Source: a candidate division TM6 bacterium GW2011_GWF2_28_16 (GTDB taxonomy: Bacteria > Patescibacteriota > Microgenomatia > UBA1400 > PJMF01). From it: 64,000 bases of DNA. This document shows positions 44,528 through 62,535 of the stretch, one piece after another. A program made the position numbers and the translations under genes. The notes beneath the pieces were generated by a model. It was not told the origin of the DNA, did no database searches, and saw nothing but the letters and a program-made list of their open reading frames with translations. Position 1 is the stretch's first letter. The number at the start of each line of letters is the position of its first letter. The stretch is taken from assembly GCA_001029715.1 (NCBI GenBank), contig CP011212.1, forward strand, positions 617,715-681,714, written 5' to 3'.

Positions 44528-46558
44528 TTGATGCTTATTCGTTTTATCAAGAAGATTATCTTTTCTTTTTTCCTTATTGTTGTTTTTTCAACTCAAATTG
44601 CTTCTGCCCAAACGAGTGAAGCCCTTGATGAAATTCCTGCTGATGGTTCTGAAAATTTCACCATTACTCTACACAGCACTTACACCGTTACCGCCACTGG
44701 TAAAACCATTGTTGAGCAAAAATTTCAGATCAAAAATAAAAACCCAGAATTATTCGTCAGTAAATATGGGATCGTCGTTAGCTCCACAAATTTAAACAAT
44801 GTTAAAGTCAGCCACAATGGTAAAGAGCTAGAACCTTTGACTACTAGTCAAAAAGGTCAAACCAGCATTGGGGTAACTTTTGAAGATAAAGTTGTCGGCG
44901 AAGGCAAAAACAACGAGCTGGTGATTAGCTACACCGATCAAGATATTGCTCTAATTAGTGGCAAAATTTTGGAAGTTAATATTCCCAAGCTTTCTGACCA
45001 TTATCAGTATCAGAGCTATCAATTAGAGCTACGCGTGCCAAGCATTTTTGATACTCCTAGTCGCATTAGCCCAAGTACTTTTACTCTTAAACAAGATGGC
45101 GACTATAATGTTATTAGCTATAGCGATCTTAAAGATCAGTCTGTTTCAGCAATCTTTGGCAACAAGCAAATTTTTGATTTAAAATTAAATTATTATTTAG
45201 ACAACCCAAGTAGTCAAAATGCCCTAACTCAGATCACTCTTCCCCCAGAAACTCCCTACCAAAAAGTTTATTATCTAAATCTTGATCCTATGCCTAATAA
45301 TATAAAAGAGGATCAAGATGGCAATTTCATTGCTACCTATGAAATTCCTGCTAATAATTCTTTTAATGTTGAGCTTTTTGCCCAAATTACATTAACTCTT
45401 CGTGAAAATCCACTCATTCCTTTTAGTCCTGTTTTGCCTGCTCATCTCACTGAACAAAAATTTTGGGAAATAAATAGCCAAGAAATAATCAGTGCTACTC
45501 AAAATCTTGATGGTGTTAAAAGTATTTATGACTTCACTGTCGAAAAGCTAAATTACACCTCAAAAAATCTTGACCAAAATTTTGAAAGACTGGGTGCAGT
45601 GACCGCACTCAATAAGGCAAATGAAAATGATGCCACCTGTCAAGAGTTTACCGATTTATTTATTACTTTGGCCAGACAGGAAGGTATTCCTGCACGCAGG
45701 GTGGTTGGCATTGCTTATTCAAATAATGAAGAGTTGCGCCCTAGCAATTTAGCTAGCGATATTTTGCACACCTGGCCAGAATATTATAATCAAGAACAAA
45801 AAGCTTGGTTAAGGTCAGATCCTACCTGGGAAGATACTACTGGTGGCATAGATTACTTTAATAATTTCGATCTTAATCACATCGCCCTAGCAATTAATGG
45901 CTCATCTAGTACTTTGCCTTACCCTGCAGGTTCATATTTGGGGAATAATGATGAAAAAAACAAAAAAATATATTTAGATTTTTCTAAAGAAGAGCTAGCC
46001 GAAATTAATCCTGATTTAGAAATAAACTTACTTAATAAAAAAGTCTCTGGTCTTAATATTCCAGGGAATTACGACATACAAATATTTAATAAAACTGGCA
46101 AAGTTTGGTATTTCTCAGATGTAAAAATTAGTGGCAATGATTTGGAAATTGTCATCAATCAAGATCATGAAGTGCAAAAAATTCTGCCTTTTTCCAAAAT
46201 AGTTTTGCCAATCACAGTTTATAATAAGGATAATAACATTACTCAAAAGTATAAAATCGAGGTAGTGGTCATTTTAAAAGAAGGCCAATTCGCTAAAAAT
46301 GAATTCGAAGTCAAAGCAAGTCCTCAACTCAAAATTGAAGATCCCAAAAAAATCATTTTCTTGGGAGCTGGATTTATTATCTCTACCCTCATCACCGGGA
46401 GTTTATTCTTTCTTGGACGCAGATGGGCAAATTCTTTACGTAGGAAAGGCCAAAAACTTGAAGAAGAGGGTCACAAGCTACAAGAGATCTCAACTGCTCT
46501 CAAAGAAAATCAAGAAAATGACGGAGTTAGCAAGGAGAGTGGAACACCAAGTTCTTGA
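44528..46558 (+). CDS. Secreted/surface protein with a transglutaminase-like (papain-fold) core and a C-terminal TM anchor
   Basis: Signal peptide. The motif …TCQEFTDLFITLARQEGIPARRVVG… matches the G/TCxxFA…R..GIPAR.V.G Cys motif. A downstream HTWPEYY supplies His and D-containing blocks follow. The C-terminal TM helix IIFLGAGFIISTLITGSLFFLG is followed by RRW. Confidence 0.6.
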   Translation: MMLIRFIKKIIFSFFLIVVFSTQIASAQTSEALDEIPADGSENFTITLHSTYTVTATGKTIVEQKFQIKNKNPELFVSKYGIVVSSTNLNNVKVSHNGKELEPLTTSQKGQTSIGVTFEDKVVGEGKNNELVISYTDQDIALISGKILEVNIPKLSDHYQYQSYQLELRVPSIFDTPSRISPSTFTLKQDGDYNVISYSDLKDQSVSAIFGNKQIFDLKLNYYLDNPSSQNALTQITLPPETPYQKVYYLNLDPMPNNIKEDQDGNFIATYEIPANNSFNVELFAQITLTLRENPLIPFSPVLPAHLTEQKFWEINSQEIISATQNLDGVKSIYDFTVEKLNYTSKNLDQNFERLGAVTALNKANENDATCQEFTDLFITLARQEGIPARRVVGIAYSNNEELRPSNLASDILHTWPEYYNQEQKAWLRSDPTWEDTTGGIDYFNNFDLNHIALAINGSSSTLPYPAGSYLGNNDEKNKKIYLDFSKEELAEINPDLEINLLNKKVSGLNIPGNYDIQIFNKTGKVWYFSDVKISGNDLEIVINQDHEVQKILPFSKIVLPITVYNKDNNITQKYKIEVVVILKEGQFAKNEFEVKASPQLKIEDPKKIIFLGAGFIISTLITGSLFFLGRRWANSLRRKGQKLEEEGHKLQEISTALKENQENDGVSKESGTPSS

Positions 46559-48055: not shown

Positions 48056-49087
48056 ATGAAAATTACTCAAATTGCCCTAATCTCCTTTGTTTTATTTCAG
48101 TTCCTAATCAGTTCCTTGATTAGTCCAAGGTTTGCTTTAGCTCAAACCAGCACTGCTAAAACAATTAATGTCTCAACCACTGATACTTTATTAGAAAATC
48201 CCGAGGCCACTCTTGCTGGAGAGGCAGCCGAATCCACTGATAGTGGCAAGCTTTCTTCACCTTCAGCTGAGGTAGTAGAGAAGTTGCAACAGAAAACCGA
48301 CCAAGATATTACAGAAACTAGTGGTCAGAAAAAAAGTGTTTTAGCTGCTTATTTAGACGAACATCCAGTCGGAAAATTGAGCTGGAATAACCTTATTCAG
48401 AAAGCCATTCGTAAAGCTATTTCTAGTGGTATGCCTGCCAATATTATTGTTATTTTGCTTATTTTCCCAATTATTGCCTCCTTAGTTGCTTTTTCTAGAC
48501 ACGTCATTGGTTTAAAAGGCTTTGGCATCTATATCCCAGCTGTTTTATCAGTAGCTTTTGTGTCTACTGGTATTTTAACTGGAGTAACCGTTTTTGTAGC
48601 TGTTTTATTAGCTGCTCTTTTCACCAGACCAATTCTTAAAAAATTGAAGCTACCAATGCTCCCAAGAACCGCCATGCTACTTATGAGCGTCTCGATTACA
48701 GTTCTGGCATTGATGTTAGTTGGTTCAATTTATAACATTGATTTAGTTATTGATATCAGTATCTTTCCTCTGTTAATCATAATACTTTTGACCGAAAACT
48801 TCATGGAGACCCAGCTTTTTAATAGTCAAAAAGAAGCTCTGCAAATAACTTTTGAGACTTTACTTATTGCTGTTCTATGTTCACTAATTCTTGGTTCAGA
48901 AACTATCCAAAAATTTGTTATTTTAAGACCAGAACTCACCTTAATCGGAGTCGCTCTAATCAACTTCGCAATTGGTAAATACACTGGCTTACGCTTCCTT
49001 GAATATCTAAGGTTTAGAGATCTGCTAAATCAAAATAATAAGTTTAAAGACACTTCTTCAGATAATAATTCTCAAGAAGAGGAATAA
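48056..49087 (+). CDS. Seven-TM membrane protein with an N-terminal secreted region, resembling the 7TM module that partners RimK-like ATP-grasp/transglutaminase systems
   Basis: A signal peptide and ~110-aa extracytoplasmic segment precede seven predicted TM helices. It sits immediately upstream of the ATP-grasp gene. Confidence 0.5.
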   Translation: MKITQIALISFVLFQFLISSLISPRFALAQTSTAKTINVSTTDTLLENPEATLAGEAAESTDSGKLSSPSAEVVEKLQQKTDQDITETSGQKKSVLAAYLDEHPVGKLSWNNLIQKAIRKAISSGMPANIIVILLIFPIIASLVAFSRHVIGLKGFGIYIPAVLSVAFVSTGILTGVTVFVAVLLAALFTRPILKKLKLPMLPRTAMLLMSVSITVLALMLVGSIYNIDLVIDISIFPLLIIILLTENFMETQLFNSQKEALQITFETLLIAVLCSLILGSETIQKFVILRPELTLIGVALINFAIGKYTGLRFLEYLRFRDLLNQNNKFKDTSSDNNSQEEE

Positions 49088-49092
49088 GTCTA

Positions 49093-50382
49093 ATGTTTGT
49101 TAATAAAGCCAAAGATCTCTTGGGAATTAATGCTCGTAATTCTTTGTACCTGAGCCGTAGTTCTGGTAAAGCCAAGGCTATTGTTCATTCCAAATACGCT
49201 ACTAAAATTCTTTTACGAGACAATGACATAGCCACTGCAGAAATTTATGGCATCCTTGGTACAGGAGAAGATGTTAATGATTTTGATTGGCAAAATTTAG
49301 ATAAGAATTTCGTGATCAAACCAACCAACGGCTATGCTGGCACTGGAGTAGTAGCTTTTCGTGAAAAAACTGCCGATGGTGTTTGGATTGACATGCTCGG
49401 TAAAAAATGGGATTTAGCCGACTTAAAATTGCATTGCGATGATATTCTCTCTGGTCAATATAGCATTCATGGATTAAATCATAACGTTATTATTGAAGAA
49501 AGAATTCCAATTCATCCAAAATTACTTAAATATTCATATAAGGGAACCCCTGATATTAGAGTCATTGTTTTTAACAGTGTTCCAGTCATGGCTATGTTGC
49601 GCTTACCAACTGAAGAATCTGGTGGCCGCGCTAATGTTACCCAAGGAGCAATTGCTGTTGGTATAGATATCGCCACCGGAATTACTACTTATGCCGTGGC
49701 TCATAAAAGTAATGCCATCCGTTATTTGCCAGGTACCAAAAAGAAACTTAATGGAATTATTATTCCAGAGTGGGACAGAATGCTCGAGACTGCAGTTACT
49801 GCTAGTAATGCGGCTGAGCTAAATTTTGCTGGCGTAGATCTTTTCATACACAAAGAAAAAGGACCCATGGTCGTGGAGCTCAATGCAGCACCTGGACTAA
49901 CTATCCAAGCTGCTAATCGAGCAGGTTTGCGTAGACGCTTGGAAAGAGTCGAAGACCTTAGTATCCAAAATCCAAAACATGGAGTAAAAGTTGCTCAGGC
50001 ACTTTTTGCCAGCGATTTTGCATCTAAAATTAAAAATAGGGCAGATTTCCCAGTTGTTTCTCTCCAAGAAGAAGTTATTGTTTGGGGAGATGATAAACAA
50101 AAGATTGAAACCACTGCCTTTTTAAACACTGGTCGTTTCAGTAGTGCTATCTCTAAAAAATTAGCTCAAGAACTTGGCTTAATTGATGTTGATGACTTAC
50201 TCTGGTTCCAGTCAGAACAAGAAGAGGGAAAAGTTCCAGTAGTTGAAGTCAAATTTAAGATTAAGGAACAAGTTGTTAAAACAACTATGATCGTCAGTAA
50301 TAAATTAAATAGCAAAAAAAATAAAATTGAAATTGGCCGTCAGGATTTAAAAAACTTTATCATTCGTTTTGATGAAGAATAA
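49093..50382 (+). CDS. RimK-like ATP-grasp ligase (alpha-L-glutamate-ligase-related) fused to a C-terminal retropepsin-like (RimB/PF05618-like) domain
   Basis: ATP-grasp blocks FVIKPTNGYAGTGV and AGVDLFIHKEKGPMVVELNAAPGL. The C-terminal ~120 aa has FLNTGRFSSA in place of the DTG(A) retropepsin catalytic motif. Confidence 0.65.
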   Translation: MFVNKAKDLLGINARNSLYLSRSSGKAKAIVHSKYATKILLRDNDIATAEIYGILGTGEDVNDFDWQNLDKNFVIKPTNGYAGTGVVAFREKTADGVWIDMLGKKWDLADLKLHCDDILSGQYSIHGLNHNVIIEERIPIHPKLLKYSYKGTPDIRVIVFNSVPVMAMLRLPTEESGGRANVTQGAIAVGIDIATGITTYAVAHKSNAIRYLPGTKKKLNGIIIPEWDRMLETAVTASNAAELNFAGVDLFIHKEKGPMVVELNAAPGLTIQAANRAGLRRRLERVEDLSIQNPKHGVKVAQALFASDFASKIKNRADFPVVSLQEEVIVWGDDKQKIETTAFLNTGRFSSAISKKLAQELGLIDVDDLLWFQSEQEEGKVPVVEVKFKIKEQVVKTTMIVSNKLNSKKNKIEIGRQDLKNFIIRFDEE

Positions 50383-51352
50383 AAACATGCCTAAACTAAA
50401 TGACTTAGTTCCAACTAATTTAGAGAGTGAAAAAGAAAAATTTTTTGCTTCTGGTTTTCGTTATAATCCGCAATTCATTTATCAAAAGAATATCTCCGAA
50501 AAAGAACTAATCAGATATGGCAAACCAAAATTATGGTACTTATTTTTGGCCAAAAGAATTCTCAGAAAATATTTGAAACAGAATGATCTTGTAAGTCAAA
50601 AAATAAATAATAAGATTTTTCTTGACCAAGATGGAGTAGAGGACTTAATTGAAGAAAGATTGGGCAACTATGGTTTAGCTAGTCGCTATAAAATTATTTT
50701 TTCTAAAGATTTTATCAGTCGGATTGCAGTCAATAATAACAATGAAGTTATTAAAGTGCGCCTGCCAATAATGATCGATAAAAACGAGATTGAAGCCATC
50801 CTAAATCATGAGATAGATACCCATATAATTAGACAGTTAAATTATGAAAGGCAACCTTGGTTTAAAAAGAAAAAAAGCAACGCTTTTAAGCCATATCTGC
50901 GCACCGAGGAGGGTCTCGCTGCTGTCAATGAGTTGATTGTAAGCGAATCTAAACTAGCTTATAAATCAGCAGCTAATTATTTGGCAGTTGATCTGGCTCT
51001 TAAAAAAGATTTTGTGACGGTTTTTAATTTCTTCTATAAAATCTGGCAAGATTCGGAGAGAGCTTGGACTTGGACTTTGAAGAAAAAAAGAGGAATAAGA
51101 GACACTAACAAAAAAGGAGCTTTTACCAAAGACTTAGTTTATTTTGAAGGTTTCATGCAGGTTCTACGTTATCTCAAAAAAAATGATTGCAATCCAACTG
51201 AGCTTTACTATGGAAAGATAAATTATAAAGACGTAAAAAAAGCCAAAAAAAACTGCTCTCAAGAAGAATTAATTTTGCCAAAATTTTTCACAAAAGACAA
51301 AGAAGCTTACAAACAAGCCGTAACTGAAATTATTAAGAATAATTTATTTTAA
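50369..51352 (+). CDS. DUF1704/MATCAP-family putative metallocarboxypeptidase (QEGLA-motif protein)
   Basis: Atypical zinc motif HEIDTH (HExxxH) followed ~30 aa later by TEEGLAAVNE (QEGLA-like). Confidence 0.6.
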   Translation: MMKNKNMPKLNDLVPTNLESEKEKFFASGFRYNPQFIYQKNISEKELIRYGKPKLWYLFLAKRILRKYLKQNDLVSQKINNKIFLDQDGVEDLIEERLGNYGLASRYKIIFSKDFISRIAVNNNNEVIKVRLPIMIDKNEIEAILNHEIDTHIIRQLNYERQPWFKKKKSNAFKPYLRTEEGLAAVNELIVSESKLAYKSAANYLAVDLALKKDFVTVFNFFYKIWQDSERAWTWTLKKKRGIRDTNKKGAFTKDLVYFEGFMQVLRYLKKNDCNPTELYYGKINYKDVKKAKKNCSQEELILPKFFTKDKEAYKQAVTEIIKNNLF

Positions 51353-52592
51353 TAGCTTCTTTCACCTGTTTAAACAACTGAATAGCTAGATTTTTACTCT
51401 TTAAACAATCATTAGCCTCTACATAAAAACTCACAATAGTTTTTCCACCAAACTTAGCTTGCTCCGCTAAATCACCAATTTTATCTCTTATTTTTATGTT
51501 GCTGACAGCTGGATTTTTATACAAAAAATCTAAATCTATTTTTTTAATCAAGCCTTTCTTATCAGCAAAATATTCCACTACTGAAATGGCTCTTTGTGGC
51601 TGATCTATTTCTTCAATATCAAGACCAGCGGCAGTTTGAAACACTGCAAGACTATAATCAAATCCAGTGGTCAAAATTGTCATTTCAGCACGATTGCCAC
51701 CACCCCTAGGGGTAGATTCAATTACTGAGTACTGATTGTTTTTCTCATCAAAAAATACTTCAGTGTGGCAAACACAGTTTCTAGCAGAAAGAGCATTGAG
51801 GGCTTTTGTCACCGTTTGATAAACTAGCTTTTCTTGGCGCTTCGTAAGCACGGTCGGCATAGTTCTAATTGGTAAATAAGTATCATCTAACCCCAACTCA
51901 TGAGCCATAACGTATTCACAAATAGGAGTATGAATGAGACGATTCCCTGAAACAAAGGTGTCAACTGTCAACTCTCTACCATAAAGCATTTCTTCCAATA
52001 AAAACTGACAATCCTCTGATTTATGTTTATAACCCTCAACTGGTTTGGAAGTGACATAACCGCTAACTTGGCTTTTCAAAAAAGCTAATTTTTCAAACAG
52101 ATCTTCTTTAGATTTAACTTTAACCACATAATTCGAATGAGCAGCTGAAGTTTTTTTAAGGATTAAAGGAAAAGAATGTCTTTCCAAAAATTCATCTAGA
52201 TGATTTAAATTGTCTAGACAAATCCCATCGGCACAGGGAACCTGTGCTGCTAGCCATTTTTGCTTCATTAAATATTTATTACAAAAATTTCTAGAGGTTG
52301 CATAGTCAATACCATCTAAACCAAGATATTGGTTAATCGCTCCAACTATAGTTACATAGTTCTCATGCCTTGTTAAAACAACATCAATTTTTTCGCCCTG
52401 ATCTATGGCATTTCTTAATTGCTTCCAATTGTAAATATCTTCAACCACTAAGACTTGGTTAAAAAGTTTTTCATATTCATTTTTGTACTTATCACGATTA
52501 ATTAGTAAACTAATTTTAGCGTCAGTTTTTAAAGCTGATTCTAAATAAATTTTCTTTCCACCAAAGCCAATCATGAGAAAATGAAGTTGCAT
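51333..52592 (-). CDS. ATP-grasp domain enzyme (carboxylate-amine/peptide ligase type), convergent with the DUF1704 gene
   Basis: PLILKKTSAAHSNYVVKV, EEMLYGRELTVDTF and C-terminal ATP-grasp blocks. An N-terminal pre-ATP-grasp domain is present. Confidence 0.6.
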   Translation of the reverse strand: MQLHFLMIGFGGKKIYLESALKTDAKISLLINRDKYKNEYEKLFNQVLVVEDIYNWKQLRNAIDQGEKIDVVLTRHENYVTIVGAINQYLGLDGIDYATSRNFCNKYLMKQKWLAAQVPCADGICLDNLNHLDEFLERHSFPLILKKTSAAHSNYVVKVKSKEDLFEKLAFLKSQVSGYVTSKPVEGYKHKSEDCQFLLEEMLYGRELTVDTFVSGNRLIHTPICEYVMAHELGLDDTYLPIRTMPTVLTKRQEKLVYQTVTKALNALSARNCVCHTEVFFDEKNNQYSVIESTPRGGGNRAEMTILTTGFDYSLAVFQTAAGLDIEEIDQPQRAISVVEYFADKKGLIKKIDLDFLYKNPAVSNIKIRDKIGDLAEQAKFGGKTIVSFYVEANDCLKSKNLAIQLFKQVKEAIKINYS

Positions 52593-59742: not shown

Positions 59743-60069
59743 ATTAAAAAGTATAAAGTAAATAAGCCATATTGACTATTGTCTTTTAACAAACTTGCCC
59801 TTAAAATAACTCCCACTTAACAGTTTTGTTCTCAGTAGGGATAAAATTCCTCAGCGTTTAAGAGATTAGGGAAAGCTAATAAAAGTTTTCTTTCCTTTTT
59901 TTGCCTTTTGCGCTTAGCTTAGTTGAGTAAAAGATCTTTAAAAAGTAAACAGCCAAATAATTGGAAATAAATATAGTGATAGAAAGTGTGCAAGGATTTT
60001 TCTCCAAAAGAGAAAGATCCGTCAATTTTTTAAGTAAATCAAATTAGTTTTTATAGAGCTAATCAAACT

Positions 60070-61557
<1,488 letters not shown>

Positions 61558-62461: not shown

Positions 62462-62535
62462 GGGTGTGTAGCTCAGATGGTTAGAGCGCAGTCCTGATAA
62501 GACTGAGGTCCTTGGTTCGATTCCAAGCACACCCA
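62462..62535 (+). tRNA. tRNA-Ile (anticodon GAU)
   Basis: GGGTGTGTAGCTCAGATGGTTAGAGC…CCTGATAAG…GGTTCGATTCC…CACACCCA. Confidence 0.85.

What the first reader, a model, noticed from the sequence alone, without database searches (positions are those of the whole stretch)
49093..50382. ATP-grasp fused to a retropepsin-like domain whose catalytic Asp is replaced (NTG instead of DTG)
In RimK-associated PF05618 proteins the catalytic aspartate sits in a D-T-G-A motif. The fused domain here reads AFLNTGRFSSA. The fusion itself is unusual, since RimK and RimB are normally separate genes. The D-to-N change suggests the domain has been retained as a non-catalytic substrate or peptide-binding module, possibly homodimerising like retropepsins.
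Basis: partly seen in the sequence, partly recalled or inferred. Interest (0 to 1): 0.5.

Follow-up and report, generated by a model that had tools for sequence, protein, structure and literature searches.

The report
Ligase fused to a dead retropepsin
A peptide-ligase gene of an ultra-small (Patescibacteria) bacterium carries at its end a retroviral-protease-like domain whose catalytic aspartate is replaced, so it cannot cut but is still strongly conserved; this naturally separates the cutting role of these bacterial proteases from their non-cutting role.

Summary

The change is a lineage trait. In 56 species genomes the column reads N 40, K 8, H 4, S 1, D 3. Thr, Gly, a new Arg (NTGR) and the GRxD motif stay fixed. 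dN/dS is about 0.03-0.07, like the ligase domain. Deeper-branching fused homologues keep DTGA.

The gene sits in a conserved operon: 7TM_transglut protein, this gene, then an intact MATCAP-like zinc carboxypeptidase. In two genomes MATCAP is replaced by a stand-alone DTGA retropepsin.

Best reading: a pseudo-protease kept for a RimB-like non-proteolytic role (binding or stimulating the ligase, dimerising, or holding a tail), with hydrolysis delegated to the neighbouring peptidase.

The fusion itself is not unique; RimBK hybrids and DTGA-fused forms exist. This is a new variant of the Rlo/Rim systems. The 7TM protein's C-terminus ends in Glu in 41 of 55 genomes, which suggests a candidate substrate.

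The parts
48056..49087 (+). 7TM_transglut membrane protein (RloB-like, but without the transglutaminase domain). It has an N-terminal signal/TM segment, an extracytoplasmic low-complexity region, and 7 TM helices. Its C-terminal tail ends in ...NNSQEEE.
   Evidence: PF14402 E 2.3e-28, aa 130-323. NF052267 RloB scores only 64.8 bits against a cut-off of 900. The stop lies 5 nt before the next gene. An orthologue is present immediately upstream of the fused gene in 54 of the 56 loci; the other two contigs are cut short. The tail ends in Glu in 41 of 55.
49093..50382 (+). The finding: a 429-aa cytoplasmic protein made of an ATP-grasp ligase, a linker and a retropepsin-like pseudo-protease domain.
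   Evidence: Full-length AF2 model: pLDDT 91.2, pTM 0.73. No TM segments.
49093..49977 (+). ATP-grasp ligase domain (aa 1-295), of the ATPgrasp_ST / RloC / TIGR02291-like subfamily. The catalytic residues appear intact.
   Evidence: PF14397 199.8 bits; TIGR02291 240 bits. Invariant K76, R156, R170, N181, D249 and E262, and near-invariant N264, across 58 homologues. Closest solved folds are RimK 5zct, ArgX/LysX and cyanophycin synthetase.
49978..50043 (+). Conserved helix (HGVKxAQALFA) followed by a flexible linker (aa 296-317).
   Evidence: aa 296-305 are invariant or nearly so. pLDDT is below 50 for aa 313-317.
50044..50379 (+). Retropepsin-like (PF05618 / RimB-RloA type) domain, aa 318-429, catalytically degenerate.
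50125..50136 (+). NTGR motif (aa 345-348) in place of DTGA. N345 (AAC, 50125-50127) occupies the catalytic Asp position, and R348 replaces the Ala.
   Evidence: T346 is invariant, G347 is present in 115 of 121 and R348 in 120 of 121.
50176..50235 (+). Flap-equivalent segment (aa 362-381, GLIDVDDLLWFQSEQEEGKV). It is highly conserved and acidic.
   Evidence: L369, L370, W371, F372, Q373, E378 and G379 are invariant or nearly so. Mean net charge is -4.0, against +1.1 in DTGA relatives.
50335..50346 (+). GRQD (aa 415-418). This is the conserved C-terminal G-R-x-D motif of retropepsin-like domains.
   Evidence: G415 is invariant, R416 is present in 119 of 121 and D418 in 120 of 121. It aligns with IIGRRDL of the DTGA relatives.
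50369..51352 (+). MATCAP/DUF1704 (QEGLA) zinc carboxypeptidase-like protein. Its start overlaps the stop of the fused gene. It carries HEIDTH (aa 147-152, nt 50807-50824) and EEG (aa 180-182, nt 50906-50914).
   Evidence: PF08014 107.4 bits, cut-off 27; TIGR02421 100.8 bits. HExxxH plus EEG are the metal ligands of the TMCP/MATCAP family (PMC10499314). It lies downstream of the fused gene in 47 of 56 loci, directly adjacent in nearly all.

Best explanation
The gene encodes a cytoplasmic ATP-grasp peptide ligase of the RloC type. The enzymes closest to it in fold (RimK, LysX/ArgX) add amino acids to a C-terminal carboxylate.

A flexible linker joins it to a RimB/RloA-type retropepsin-like domain that has lost its catalytic aspartate (N345, motif NTGR). 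That domain is a pseudo-protease. It cannot hydrolyse peptide bonds, but it keeps the fold, the Thr-Gly of the 'fireman's grip' and the GRxD motif, and it is under strong purifying selection.

Most likely it keeps the non-proteolytic half of what RimB does for RimK. It would sit on the ligase, probably as a dimer that also pairs two ligase chains, and tune ligase activity or substrate handling. Hydrolysis of the product is delegated to the intact MATCAP-like zinc carboxypeptidase encoded immediately downstream.

The three co-translated genes (7TM protein, ligase with pseudo-protease, carboxypeptidase) would form a writer/eraser module acting at the cytoplasmic face of the membrane.

Shown: the fold, the position of N345, its conservation, selection on the domain, the operon, and intact ligase and MATCAP motifs.
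Inferred: loss of proteolysis (by analogy with the RloA D48N and RimB D31E mutants), the stimulatory or dimerising role, glutamate as the added residue, and the identity of the substrate.
For: Fold and homology.

Loss of catalysis:
- RloA D48N is the catalytically dead control, and RimB D31E abolishes cleavage (PMC12239564; PMC11957791).
- The catalytic column varies among N 40, K 8, H 4 and S 1 across 56 species.
- K and H each form a subclade in the tree. That pattern does not fit a conserved alternative nucleophile.

A retained function:
- T346, R348, G415, R416, D418 and the LLWFQ flap are near-invariant.
- Domain identity is 58%, against 70% for the ligase domain.
- dN/dS is 0.03-0.07 for the closest pairs, equal to the ligase domain; dS is saturated, so this is an upper-bound style estimate.

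Precedent for a non-proteolytic role: the RimB dimer binds RimK and raises its ATPase activity about 4-fold, and detectable poly-Glu was made in vitro only when RimB was present with RimK (PMC11957791).

Hydrolysis delegated:
- 49 of 50 informative loci with a non-Asp residue have a separate hydrolase downstream, directly adjacent in nearly all. It is MATCAP in 47, and a stand-alone PF05618 protein with DTGA plus a RimK-like ligase in L049 and L054.
- The DTGR loci (L067, L068; L065 is nearly truncated) have none.
- The window's MATCAP-like protein has HExxxH plus EEG.

Functional linkage of the parts is shown by other fusions: ATP-grasp + PF05618 + MATCAP in one 800-aa protein (P0215), and PF05618 + 7TM proteins (P0197, P0216, P0220).

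The ligase appears active: ATP-grasp residues are invariant and the fold is closest to RimK and ArgX/LysX.
Against: - No biochemical data exist for any member of this clade.
- I could not model a dimer or the domain-domain interface. The linker is disordered and pTM is only 0.73, so the docking of the dead domain on the ligase is not predicted.
- RimB's stimulation of RimK has not, in the text I read, been shown to be independent of its catalytic Asp.
- Two of the three conserved poly-Glu-binding basic residues of RloA are gone (K46 to F343, R114 to V381; R137 becomes K404), and the flap is acidic. The ligand or partner surface has therefore changed, and the analogy with RimB may be incomplete.
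- DTGA-fused systems also carry MATCAP (L008, L011). Presence of MATCAP does not by itself explain loss of the Asp.
- The hydrolase correlation rests on very few independent events: the loci lacking a hydrolase form one small clade.
- A stand-alone active retropepsin elsewhere in this genome cannot be excluded from a 64-kb window.
Confidence: 0.6

Rival explanations
1. Pure oligomerisation scaffold. The dead retropepsin domain is kept only because its homodimer holds two ligase chains together. It has no ligand-binding or regulatory role.
For: The residues most conserved relative to active relatives are those known to build the retropepsin dimer and core: Thr-Gly of the fireman's grip and GRxD. 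RloA and RimB are obligate dimers. The substrate-binding arginines of RloA are partly lost.
Against: The flap-equivalent segment (DDLLWFQ..EEGK.P) and the new R348 are as invariant as the core. A mere dimerisation handle would not require that. The flap's charge reversal to -4 looks like a remodelled interaction surface.
Confidence: 0.18
2. Built-in pseudo-substrate or gate. The acidic flap and pocket of the dead domain mimic an acidic tail. They occupy the ligase or MATCAP active site, or the cytoplasmic face of the 7TM protein, and so act as an autoinhibitory or competitive regulator.
For: Flap net charge is -4.0, against +1.1 in active relatives, with an invariant EEG/EGK stretch. The flexible linker allows the domain to swing. 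Ligases and carboxypeptidases of this kind recognise acidic tails.
Against: No direct evidence. The flap is an internal loop and not a free C-terminus, which is what RimK-like ligases and carboxypeptidases act on.
Confidence: 0.1
3. Still a protease. Activity would be rescued by other chemistry (another acidic residue, or Asn-based cleavage), or by heterodimerising with a stand-alone DTGA retropepsin encoded elsewhere.
For: Several acidic residues are near-invariant in the domain: E326, D368, E378, E385 and D418. Two related genomes do encode a stand-alone DTGA protein next door. Rare members of the clade read DTGR.
Against: The catalytic column is N, K, H or S in different subclades. D-to-N and D-to-E mutants of RloA and RimB are dead, and RimB wild-type/D31E heterodimers are inactive. 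There is no second retropepsin-like domain in the window. The A-to-R change puts an Arg next to the former active site.
Confidence: 0.07
4. Evolutionary relic. The domain is a decaying remnant of an ancestral active fusion and has no present function.
For: It is somewhat less conserved than the ligase domain (58% against 70% pairwise identity). The catalytic residue has been lost.
Against: dN/dS is about 0.03-0.07. No frameshifts or truncations appear in 56 species. Many columns are invariant. These organisms have strongly reduced genomes, in which useless domains are usually lost (general knowledge).
Confidence: 0.03

Closest known systems
rloABC operon of Pseudomonas and other Gammaproteobacteria (RloA retropepsin-like peptidase, RloB inactive transglutaminase-7TM, RloC ATP-grasp; PMC12239564)
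   Same: - The same three protein families are linked in one operon: an ATPgrasp_ST/TIGR02291-like ligase, a 7TM_transglut membrane protein and a PF05618-type retropepsin fold.
- RloA and RloA2 are among the closest solved structures to the C-terminal domain.
   Different: - Here the retropepsin fold is fused to the C-terminus of the ligase. It is cytoplasmic (no signal peptide) and lacks the catalytic Asp.
- The 7TM protein has no transglutaminase domain (RloB model 64.8 bits against a cut-off of 900).
- A MATCAP-like peptidase is added.
- The poly-Glu-binding residues K46 and R114 are not conserved, and the flap is acidic rather than basic.
RimB-RimK and the RimBK hybrid (PMC11957791)
   Same: - A retropepsin-like domain is physically coupled to an ATP-grasp ligase.
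- RimB is cytoplasmic and dimeric. Besides cleaving poly-Glu it stimulates RimK, which is the best precedent for a non-proteolytic role.
- RimBK shows that such fusions exist.
   Different: - In RimBK the protease domain is N-terminal, keeps DTG and is proteolytically active.
- The ligase there is RimK proper (PF08443). Here it is ATPgrasp_ST, about 20% identical to RimK in structural alignment.
- There is no 7TM or MATCAP partner in rim loci.
Fused ATPgrasp_ST + PF05618 proteins with intact DTGA (e.g. P0140, P0148, P0165, P0170, P0258; triple fusion P0215)
   Same: Same domain order, same linker position and the same 7TM gene immediately upstream. They branch below the NTGR clade in the tree.
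   Different: They keep AKIDTGA and reach the Pfam PF05618 threshold. The window's clade has xTGR, is invisible to the Pfam model and has an acidic flap.
Engineered D25N HIV-1 protease, RloA D48N and other inactive retropepsin mutants; natural pseudo-proteases in general
   Same: The same substitution at the same structural position abolishes catalysis while the fold is kept. RloA D48N serves as the dead control. 'Inactive HIV-1 protease' substrate complexes are among the fold matches.
   Different: Those are laboratory mutants. Here the change is natural, is fixed in a lineage and comes with further remodelling (A to R, flap).
Eukaryotic tubulin tail cycle: TTL/TTLL ATP-grasp ligases against MATCAP/TMCP carboxypeptidases (PMC10499314)
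   Same: An ATP-grasp ligase is paired with a MATCAP-family HExxxH/EEG metallocarboxypeptidase. TMCPs remove C-terminal Tyr/Glu and polyglutamylation.
   Different: The bacterial substrate is unknown. The ligase belongs to a different ATP-grasp subfamily. The resemblance is analogy plus homology of the peptidase only.

Membership tests
PF05618 (Zn_protease / RimB-like; RimB-RloA retropepsin-like peptidases) | Retropepsin-like beta-barrel fold, closest to solved family members | tested here: met
PF05618 (Zn_protease / RimB-like; RimB-RloA retropepsin-like peptidases) | Match to the Pfam model above the gathering score (27 bits) | tested here: not met
   No PF05618 hit even at E up to 10. None of the 120 close homologues carries a precomputed PF05618 hit. 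Homology is reached only through an intermediate profile.
PF05618 (Zn_protease / RimB-like; RimB-RloA retropepsin-like peptidases) | Catalytic D-T-G-A motif | tested here: not met
   The motif is N-T-G-R at aa 345-348. N aligns with the D of AKIDTGA. In 56 species the column reads N 40, K 8, H 4, S 1, D 3.
PF05618 (Zn_protease / RimB-like; RimB-RloA retropepsin-like peptidases) | C-terminal G-R-x-D/L motif | tested here: met
   IGRQDL at aa 414-419. G415 is invariant, and R416 and D418 are present in at least 119 of 121. It aligns with IIGRRDL.
PF05618 (Zn_protease / RimB-like; RimB-RloA retropepsin-like peptidases) | Basic residues that coordinate poly-Glu (RloA K46, R114, R137) | tested here: not met
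   The equivalents are F343 (L/F in the family), V381 (V 68, R 24, L 14 of 121) and K404 (K/R). Only one of the three is kept.
PF05618 (Zn_protease / RimB-like; RimB-RloA retropepsin-like peptidases) | Homodimer with the active site at the interface | not testable with these tools
   Only single-chain prediction is available, and no coordinates are returned.
ATPgrasp_ST (PF14397) / RloC-like alpha-L-glutamate ligase-like proteins (TIGR02291) | Match to PF14397 above the gathering score | tested here: met
   199.8 bits against a cut-off of 31.4, aa 21-287.
ATPgrasp_ST (PF14397) / RloC-like alpha-L-glutamate ligase-like proteins (TIGR02291) | Match to TIGR02291 above NCBI's cut-off (314 bits) | tested here: not met
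   240 bits, covering 288 of 317 positions. It is a related subfamily and not the gammaproteobacterial equivalog.
ATPgrasp_ST (PF14397) / RloC-like alpha-L-glutamate ligase-like proteins (TIGR02291) | Intact ATP-grasp nucleotide- and Mg-binding residues | tested here: met
   K76, R156, R170, N181, D249 and E262 are invariant and N264 is near-invariant in 58 homologues. The RimK-model match covers aa 232-271. Assigning these residues to ATP/Mg binding rests on general knowledge of RimK-type enzymes.
ATPgrasp_ST (PF14397) / RloC-like alpha-L-glutamate ligase-like proteins (TIGR02291) | Adjacent 7TM_transglut gene | tested here: met
   The 7TM gene ends 5 nt upstream. The same arrangement is seen in 54 of the 56 loci, and in L005, L008 and L011.
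rloABC system (PMC12239564) | Separate, secreted RloA peptidase with signal peptide and DTG | tested here: not met
   The only retropepsin-like domain in the window is the fused, signal-less, Asn-bearing one.
rloABC system (PMC12239564) | RloB: inactive transglutaminase domain fused to 7 TM helices | tested here: not met
   Only the 7TM part matches (aa 130-323). NF052267 scores 64.8 bits against a cut-off of 900. A separate Transglut_core protein lies 3.5 kb upstream.
RimBK hybrid (PMC11957791) | N-terminal active RimB domain fused to RimK proper | tested here: not met
   Here the domain is C-terminal and Asp-less, and the ligase is ATPgrasp_ST. P0229 is an example of the true RimBK architecture.
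MATCAP / TMCP (PF08014, DUF1704, QEGLA) for the downstream gene | Pfam match plus HExxxH and EEG metal ligands | tested here: met
   107.4 bits against a cut-off of 27. HEIDTH at aa 147 and EEG at aa 180. The motif definition is from PMC10499314.

The most novel reading that the evidence does not exclude
The three genes form a bacterial 'tail code'. The ATP-grasp extends the Glu-ended cytoplasmic C-terminal tail of its own 7TM partner (...SQEEE) with amino acids. The MATCAP-like carboxypeptidase trims that tail. The dead retropepsin domain has been converted from eraser to reader or clamp: it holds the tail, or the ligase dimer, without cutting.

This would identify a membrane-protein tail as the long-sought kind of substrate for RloC/RloA-type systems. 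It would also give a prokaryotic counterpart to the tubulin TTL(L)/MATCAP cycle.
Probability: 0.2. Interest if true: 0.8.

Novelty: new variant of a known kind. Interest (0 to 1): 0.55.

Why it matters
Bacterial retropepsin-like peptidases (RimB, RloA) were characterised only in 2025. The substrates of the Rlo system, which controls osmotic tolerance, antibiotic sensitivity and biofilm in Pseudomonas, are still unknown (PMC12239564).

RimB both cuts poly-Glu and activates its ligase, and these two activities are hard to separate experimentally. A lineage in which nature has fixed the 'D-to-N' dead mutant, fused it to the ligase and handed hydrolysis to a different peptidase is a ready-made separation-of-function case. 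It predicts that the non-proteolytic role is the one that cannot be lost.

The conserved Glu-ended tail of the partner 7TM protein gives a concrete substrate hypothesis that can be tested by mass spectrometry. The case also shows that Pfam misses this whole clade, so such domains go unannotated in Patescibacteria genomes.

Tried and rejected
- hmmscan of the isolated C-terminal domain against Pfam found no PF05618 hit. The only hits were gag-asp_proteas (E 0.075) and a spurious VD10_N.
- A profile of the NTGR clade against PDB sequences gave only insignificant homeodomain matches, caused by 'LWFQ' resembling 'IWFQN'. I treated these as chance. The link to RloA/2pma needed the intermediate DTGA profile or structure comparison.
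The taxonomic spread of the DTGA-fused forms therefore remains poorly known. The listing of cluster members gave almost no names.
- The idea that MATCAP presence explains loss of the Asp was tested and weakened. DTGA-fused genes also occur with MATCAP (L008, L011).
- dN/dS is limited by saturated dS (above 1.3 in every pair), so the values are rough.
- The paper that first described these ATP-grasp/7TM associations (Iyer et al. 2009) is not held. I did not use it beyond the Pfam family descriptions.
- Promoter and terminator scans were uninformative; the counts were not above the shuffled controls.
Full report
**1. What is at the coordinates**

The ORF 49093..50382 (+) exists as described. It has an ATG start and encodes 429 aa. 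The motif AFLNTGRFSSA is aa 342-352. N345 is the codon AAC at 50125-50127, one transition from Asp.

Pfam and NCBIfam place aa 1-290 in the ATPgrasp_ST family (PF14397, 199.8 bits) and close to TIGR02291 'alpha-L-glutamate ligase-like'. The TIGR02291 score is 240 bits, below the equivalog cut-off of 314. Only a short stretch matches RimK proper.

The window is from a Patescibacteria (CPR) genome. The nearest protein (98% identity) is labelled 'Patescibacteria group bacterium', and the others Pacebacteria, Woesebacteria or Paceibacterota. A 16S rRNA gene lies at 60069-61556.

**2. Is the C-terminal part a retropepsin-like domain?**

Pfam says nothing. There is no PF05618 hit even at E = 10, only gag-asp_proteas at E 0.075. 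None of 120 close homologues has a precomputed PF05618 hit. It is not, on three independent lines.

- Profile search. A profile of the domain searched against 1.84 billion representative proteins finds 196 relatives. When these are aligned back, 131 of 157 domains carry Asp in the N345 column, 116 of them as DTGA and typically as AKIDTGA. Many of these pass the Pfam PF05618 threshold.
- Profile-profile comparison. hhalign of the window's clade (A1) against 40 DTGA relatives (A2) gives 99.9% probability and E 1.8e-31 over 112 columns. It aligns 'AliNTGRfRSAI' on 'AKIDTGAyRSSID' and 'EIGRkDL' on 'IIGRRDL'. The A2 profile in turn hits RloA2 (E 8e-10), RloA and 2pma, with their DTGA aligned.

N345 therefore sits at the catalytic Asp position. 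No other DTG or DSG lies in the domain, and the domain is the only retropepsin-like sequence in all six frames of the window.

**3. Is the replacement a property of the lineage?**

Among 120 close homologues plus the query, the column is N 112, K 4, S 3, D 2. T346 is invariant. G347 is present in 115 of 121 and R348 in 120 of 121.

A scan of one genome per GTDB species found 56 loci. All are labelled, or appear to be, Patescibacteria MAGs, apart from some mislabelled records. In these loci the column is N 40, K 8, H 4, S 1, D 3.

In a rough neighbour-joining tree the DTGA-fused proteins branch at the base. The clade defined by the A-to-R change (xTGR) sits inside them. K and H each mark one subclade, and the few DTGR forms make one small deep branch.

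The Asp was therefore lost in this lineage, and the position then drifted among polar residues. That is what one expects of a site that no longer performs catalysis.

In the closest characterised enzymes the same change is used as the dead control. These are RloA D48N/D48A (PMC12239564) and RimB D31E, which also poisons wild-type subunits in heterodimers (PMC11957791).

**4. Is the domain still doing something?**

Yes.
- Mean pairwise identity is 58%, against 70% for the ligase domain.
- Against the closest relatives, dN is 0.05-0.13 with dS at or above 1.4. That gives omega of about 0.03-0.07, the same as the ligase domain. dS is saturated, so these values are approximate.
- None of the 56 loci shows a truncation.
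- Invariant or near-invariant positions include the Thr-Gly of the fireman's grip, the new Arg after it, GRxD, and the whole flap-equivalent segment IDxDDLLWFQ...EEGKxPVVEV.

The surface has been remodelled relative to active relatives. Of the RloA residues shown to bind poly-Glu (K46, R114, R137), the equivalents are F343, V381 and K404. The flap carries a mean net charge of -4.0, against +1.1 in DTGA relatives. Binding of a poly-Glu chain in the RloA manner is thus not supported.

**5. Context**

The gene is the middle one of three tightly packed genes.
- Upstream: a 7TM_transglut protein at 48056..49087. Its stop is 5 nt before the start of the fused gene. It is RloB-like but lacks the transglutaminase domain.
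- Downstream: a MATCAP/DUF1704 protein at 50369..51352. Its start overlaps the stop of the fused gene.

The MATCAP-like protein has HEIDTH and EEG. These are the metal-binding motifs of the eukaryotic TMCP/MATCAP tubulin carboxypeptidases, which remove C-terminal Tyr/Glu and polyglutamylation (PMC10499314). Neither the ligase nor the peptidase has a TM segment.

The order 7TM, fused gene, MATCAP recurs in 47 of the 56 loci. Four further contigs end too early to tell.

In two genomes (L049, L054) MATCAP is replaced by a stand-alone PF05618 protein with intact AKxDTGA (37.9 and 44.6 bits) plus a RimK-like ligase. In the small DTGR branch (L067, L068) there is no separate hydrolase; the next gene is rmuC.

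Overall, 49 of 50 informative loci with a non-Asp residue have another hydrolase downstream, directly adjacent in nearly all, and the loci that keep Asp have none. This is suggestive but rests on very few independent events. DTGA-fused genes also occur together with MATCAP (L008, L011).

Other natural fusions tie the parts together:
- ATP-grasp + PF05618 + MATCAP in one 800-aa protein (P0215).
- One or two retropepsin domains fused to the 7TM module (P0197, P0216, P0220).
- PF05618 + RimK (P0229, the published RimBK type).

**6. The ligase**

The full-length model has pLDDT 91.2 and pTM 0.73, with a disordered linker at aa 313-317. This means two well-folded domains whose mutual orientation is not predicted.

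The ATP-grasp part is closest to RimK (5zct, 7qys), ArgX/LysX and cyanophycin synthetase. All of these extend a C-terminal or side-chain carboxylate of a peptide or protein. The ATP-grasp signature residues are invariant.

**7. Mechanism proposed**

Shown:
- The domain is a RimB/RloA-type fold without the catalytic Asp.
- It is fixed and selected in this lineage.
- It is fused to an apparently active ligase.
- It is co-encoded with an intact carboxypeptidase and a 7TM protein.

Inferred: it is a pseudo-protease that keeps the non-proteolytic role documented for RimB. The RimB dimer binds RimK, raises its ATPase activity about four-fold, and was needed for detectable poly-Glu synthesis in vitro (PMC11957791). 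Removal of the product would be left to MATCAP.

Alternatives I cannot exclude are a pure dimerisation handle, an acidic pseudo-substrate or gate, or, much less likely, residual proteolysis or a relic.

**8. A lead seen on the way**

The 7TM protein ends in ...NNSQEEE. Its orthologues end in Glu in 41 of 55 genomes (SQEEE, GLEE, IIEEE, DDQ[SA]E, TPEE and others), although the tails differ in length and sequence. Only 3 of 41 long ORFs in the window end in Glu.

7TM proteins of the DTGA-type systems do not have such tails. With an extracytoplasmic N-terminus and seven helices, the tail should be cytoplasmic. This is an inference from topology.

RimK, LysX/ArgX and TTL(L) all act on Glu-ended C-terminal tails. 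The 7TM tail is therefore a candidate acceptor for the ligase and a candidate substrate for MATCAP. This is a hypothesis only.

**9. Comparison with what is known, and novelty**

The closest system is rloABC (PMC12239564). The closest precedent for a fusion is RimBK.

The window's protein is not a member of either. It fails the DTG, Pfam-threshold and poly-Glu-residue tests for PF05618. It has no secreted RloA and no transglutaminase on the 7TM protein. Its domain order and ligase subfamily differ from RimBK.

It is best described as a new variant of the Rlo/Rim kind. It is a cytoplasmic, C-terminally fused, catalytically degenerate retropepsin domain within a 7TM / ATP-grasp / MATCAP operon of Patescibacteria. 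No held paper among those my searches listed links retropepsins with Patescibacteria or describes this fused Asn form. The searchable library is limited.

**Verdict**

Interest is moderate, rising if the tail-substrate idea proves true.

Noticed in passing
window 49067-49084 (C-terminus of the 7TM protein, 48056..49087); loci L013-L064: The 7TM_transglut protein ends in ...NNSQEEE. Its orthologues end in Glu in 41 of 55 genomes, despite divergent tail lengths and sequences, against 3 of 41 long ORFs in the window. 7TM proteins of the DTGA-type systems lack acidic tails. This tail may be the acceptor for the adjacent ATP-grasp and a substrate of MATCAP. Tail type tracks the catalytic-column residue by subclade: N with EEE/LEE, K with DDQ[SA]E, H with ER/KR.
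   Followed up: partly
window 44528..46558 (+): A 676-aa Transglut_core protein with an N-terminal signal/TM segment and a C-terminal TM segment. It has candidate Cys-His-Asp motifs (ATCQEF, HTWPE, RSDPT). It lies 3.5 kb upstream, separated by uvrC and a PF04020 membrane protein, and this synteny is kept in about 50 of 56 loci. It may be the unfused counterpart of RloB's transglutaminase domain, here apparently with catalytic residues.
   Followed up: partly
L049:5314-5757 and L054:5291-5731, plus the next ORFs: In two related genomes the MATCAP gene is replaced by a stand-alone PF05618 protein with intact DTGA, followed by a RimK-like ATP-grasp. This suggests the two kinds of hydrolase are interchangeable in this operon.
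   Followed up: yes
proteins P0215, P0220, P0197/P0216, P0214, P0229 (from; scanned); loci L008, L009: Unusual architectures among relatives:
- ATPgrasp_ST + PF05618 + MATCAP in one 800-aa protein.
- Two tandem retropepsin domains (a pepsin-like pseudo-dimer) fused to the 7TM module.
- A single retropepsin domain + 7TM.
- Class I lysyl-tRNA synthetase + PF05618.
- PF05618 + RimK.

L008 also has three further ATP-grasp genes and a second MATCAP in a row.
   Followed up: partly
window 51333..52592 (-): A second ATP-grasp gene (ATP-grasp_4, 419 aa) is convergent with the MATCAP gene, and the two 3' ends overlap by 20 nt. It is syntenic only in the closest relatives (L013-L022), so it is probably not part of the system.
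   Followed up: partly
window 50176-50235 (aa 362-381): The flap segment 'LAQELGL...DDLLWFQ' gives weak, insignificant hits to homeodomain helix 3 ('IWFQN'; E 0.07-0.3). I judged these to be chance resemblance.
   Followed up: yes
window 60069-61556 and 62462-62535: The G+C spike at 60-62 kb is a complete bacterial 16S rRNA gene, followed by a tRNA. It could be used to place the organism taxonomically.
   Followed up: partly
locus titles: Many of the 56 MAG records carrying this Patescibacteria-type operon are titled 'uncultured Pseudomonadales bacterium', and one is titled 'Vitreimonas sp.'. These are probably placeholder or wrong organism names in the deposited records.
   Followed up: no
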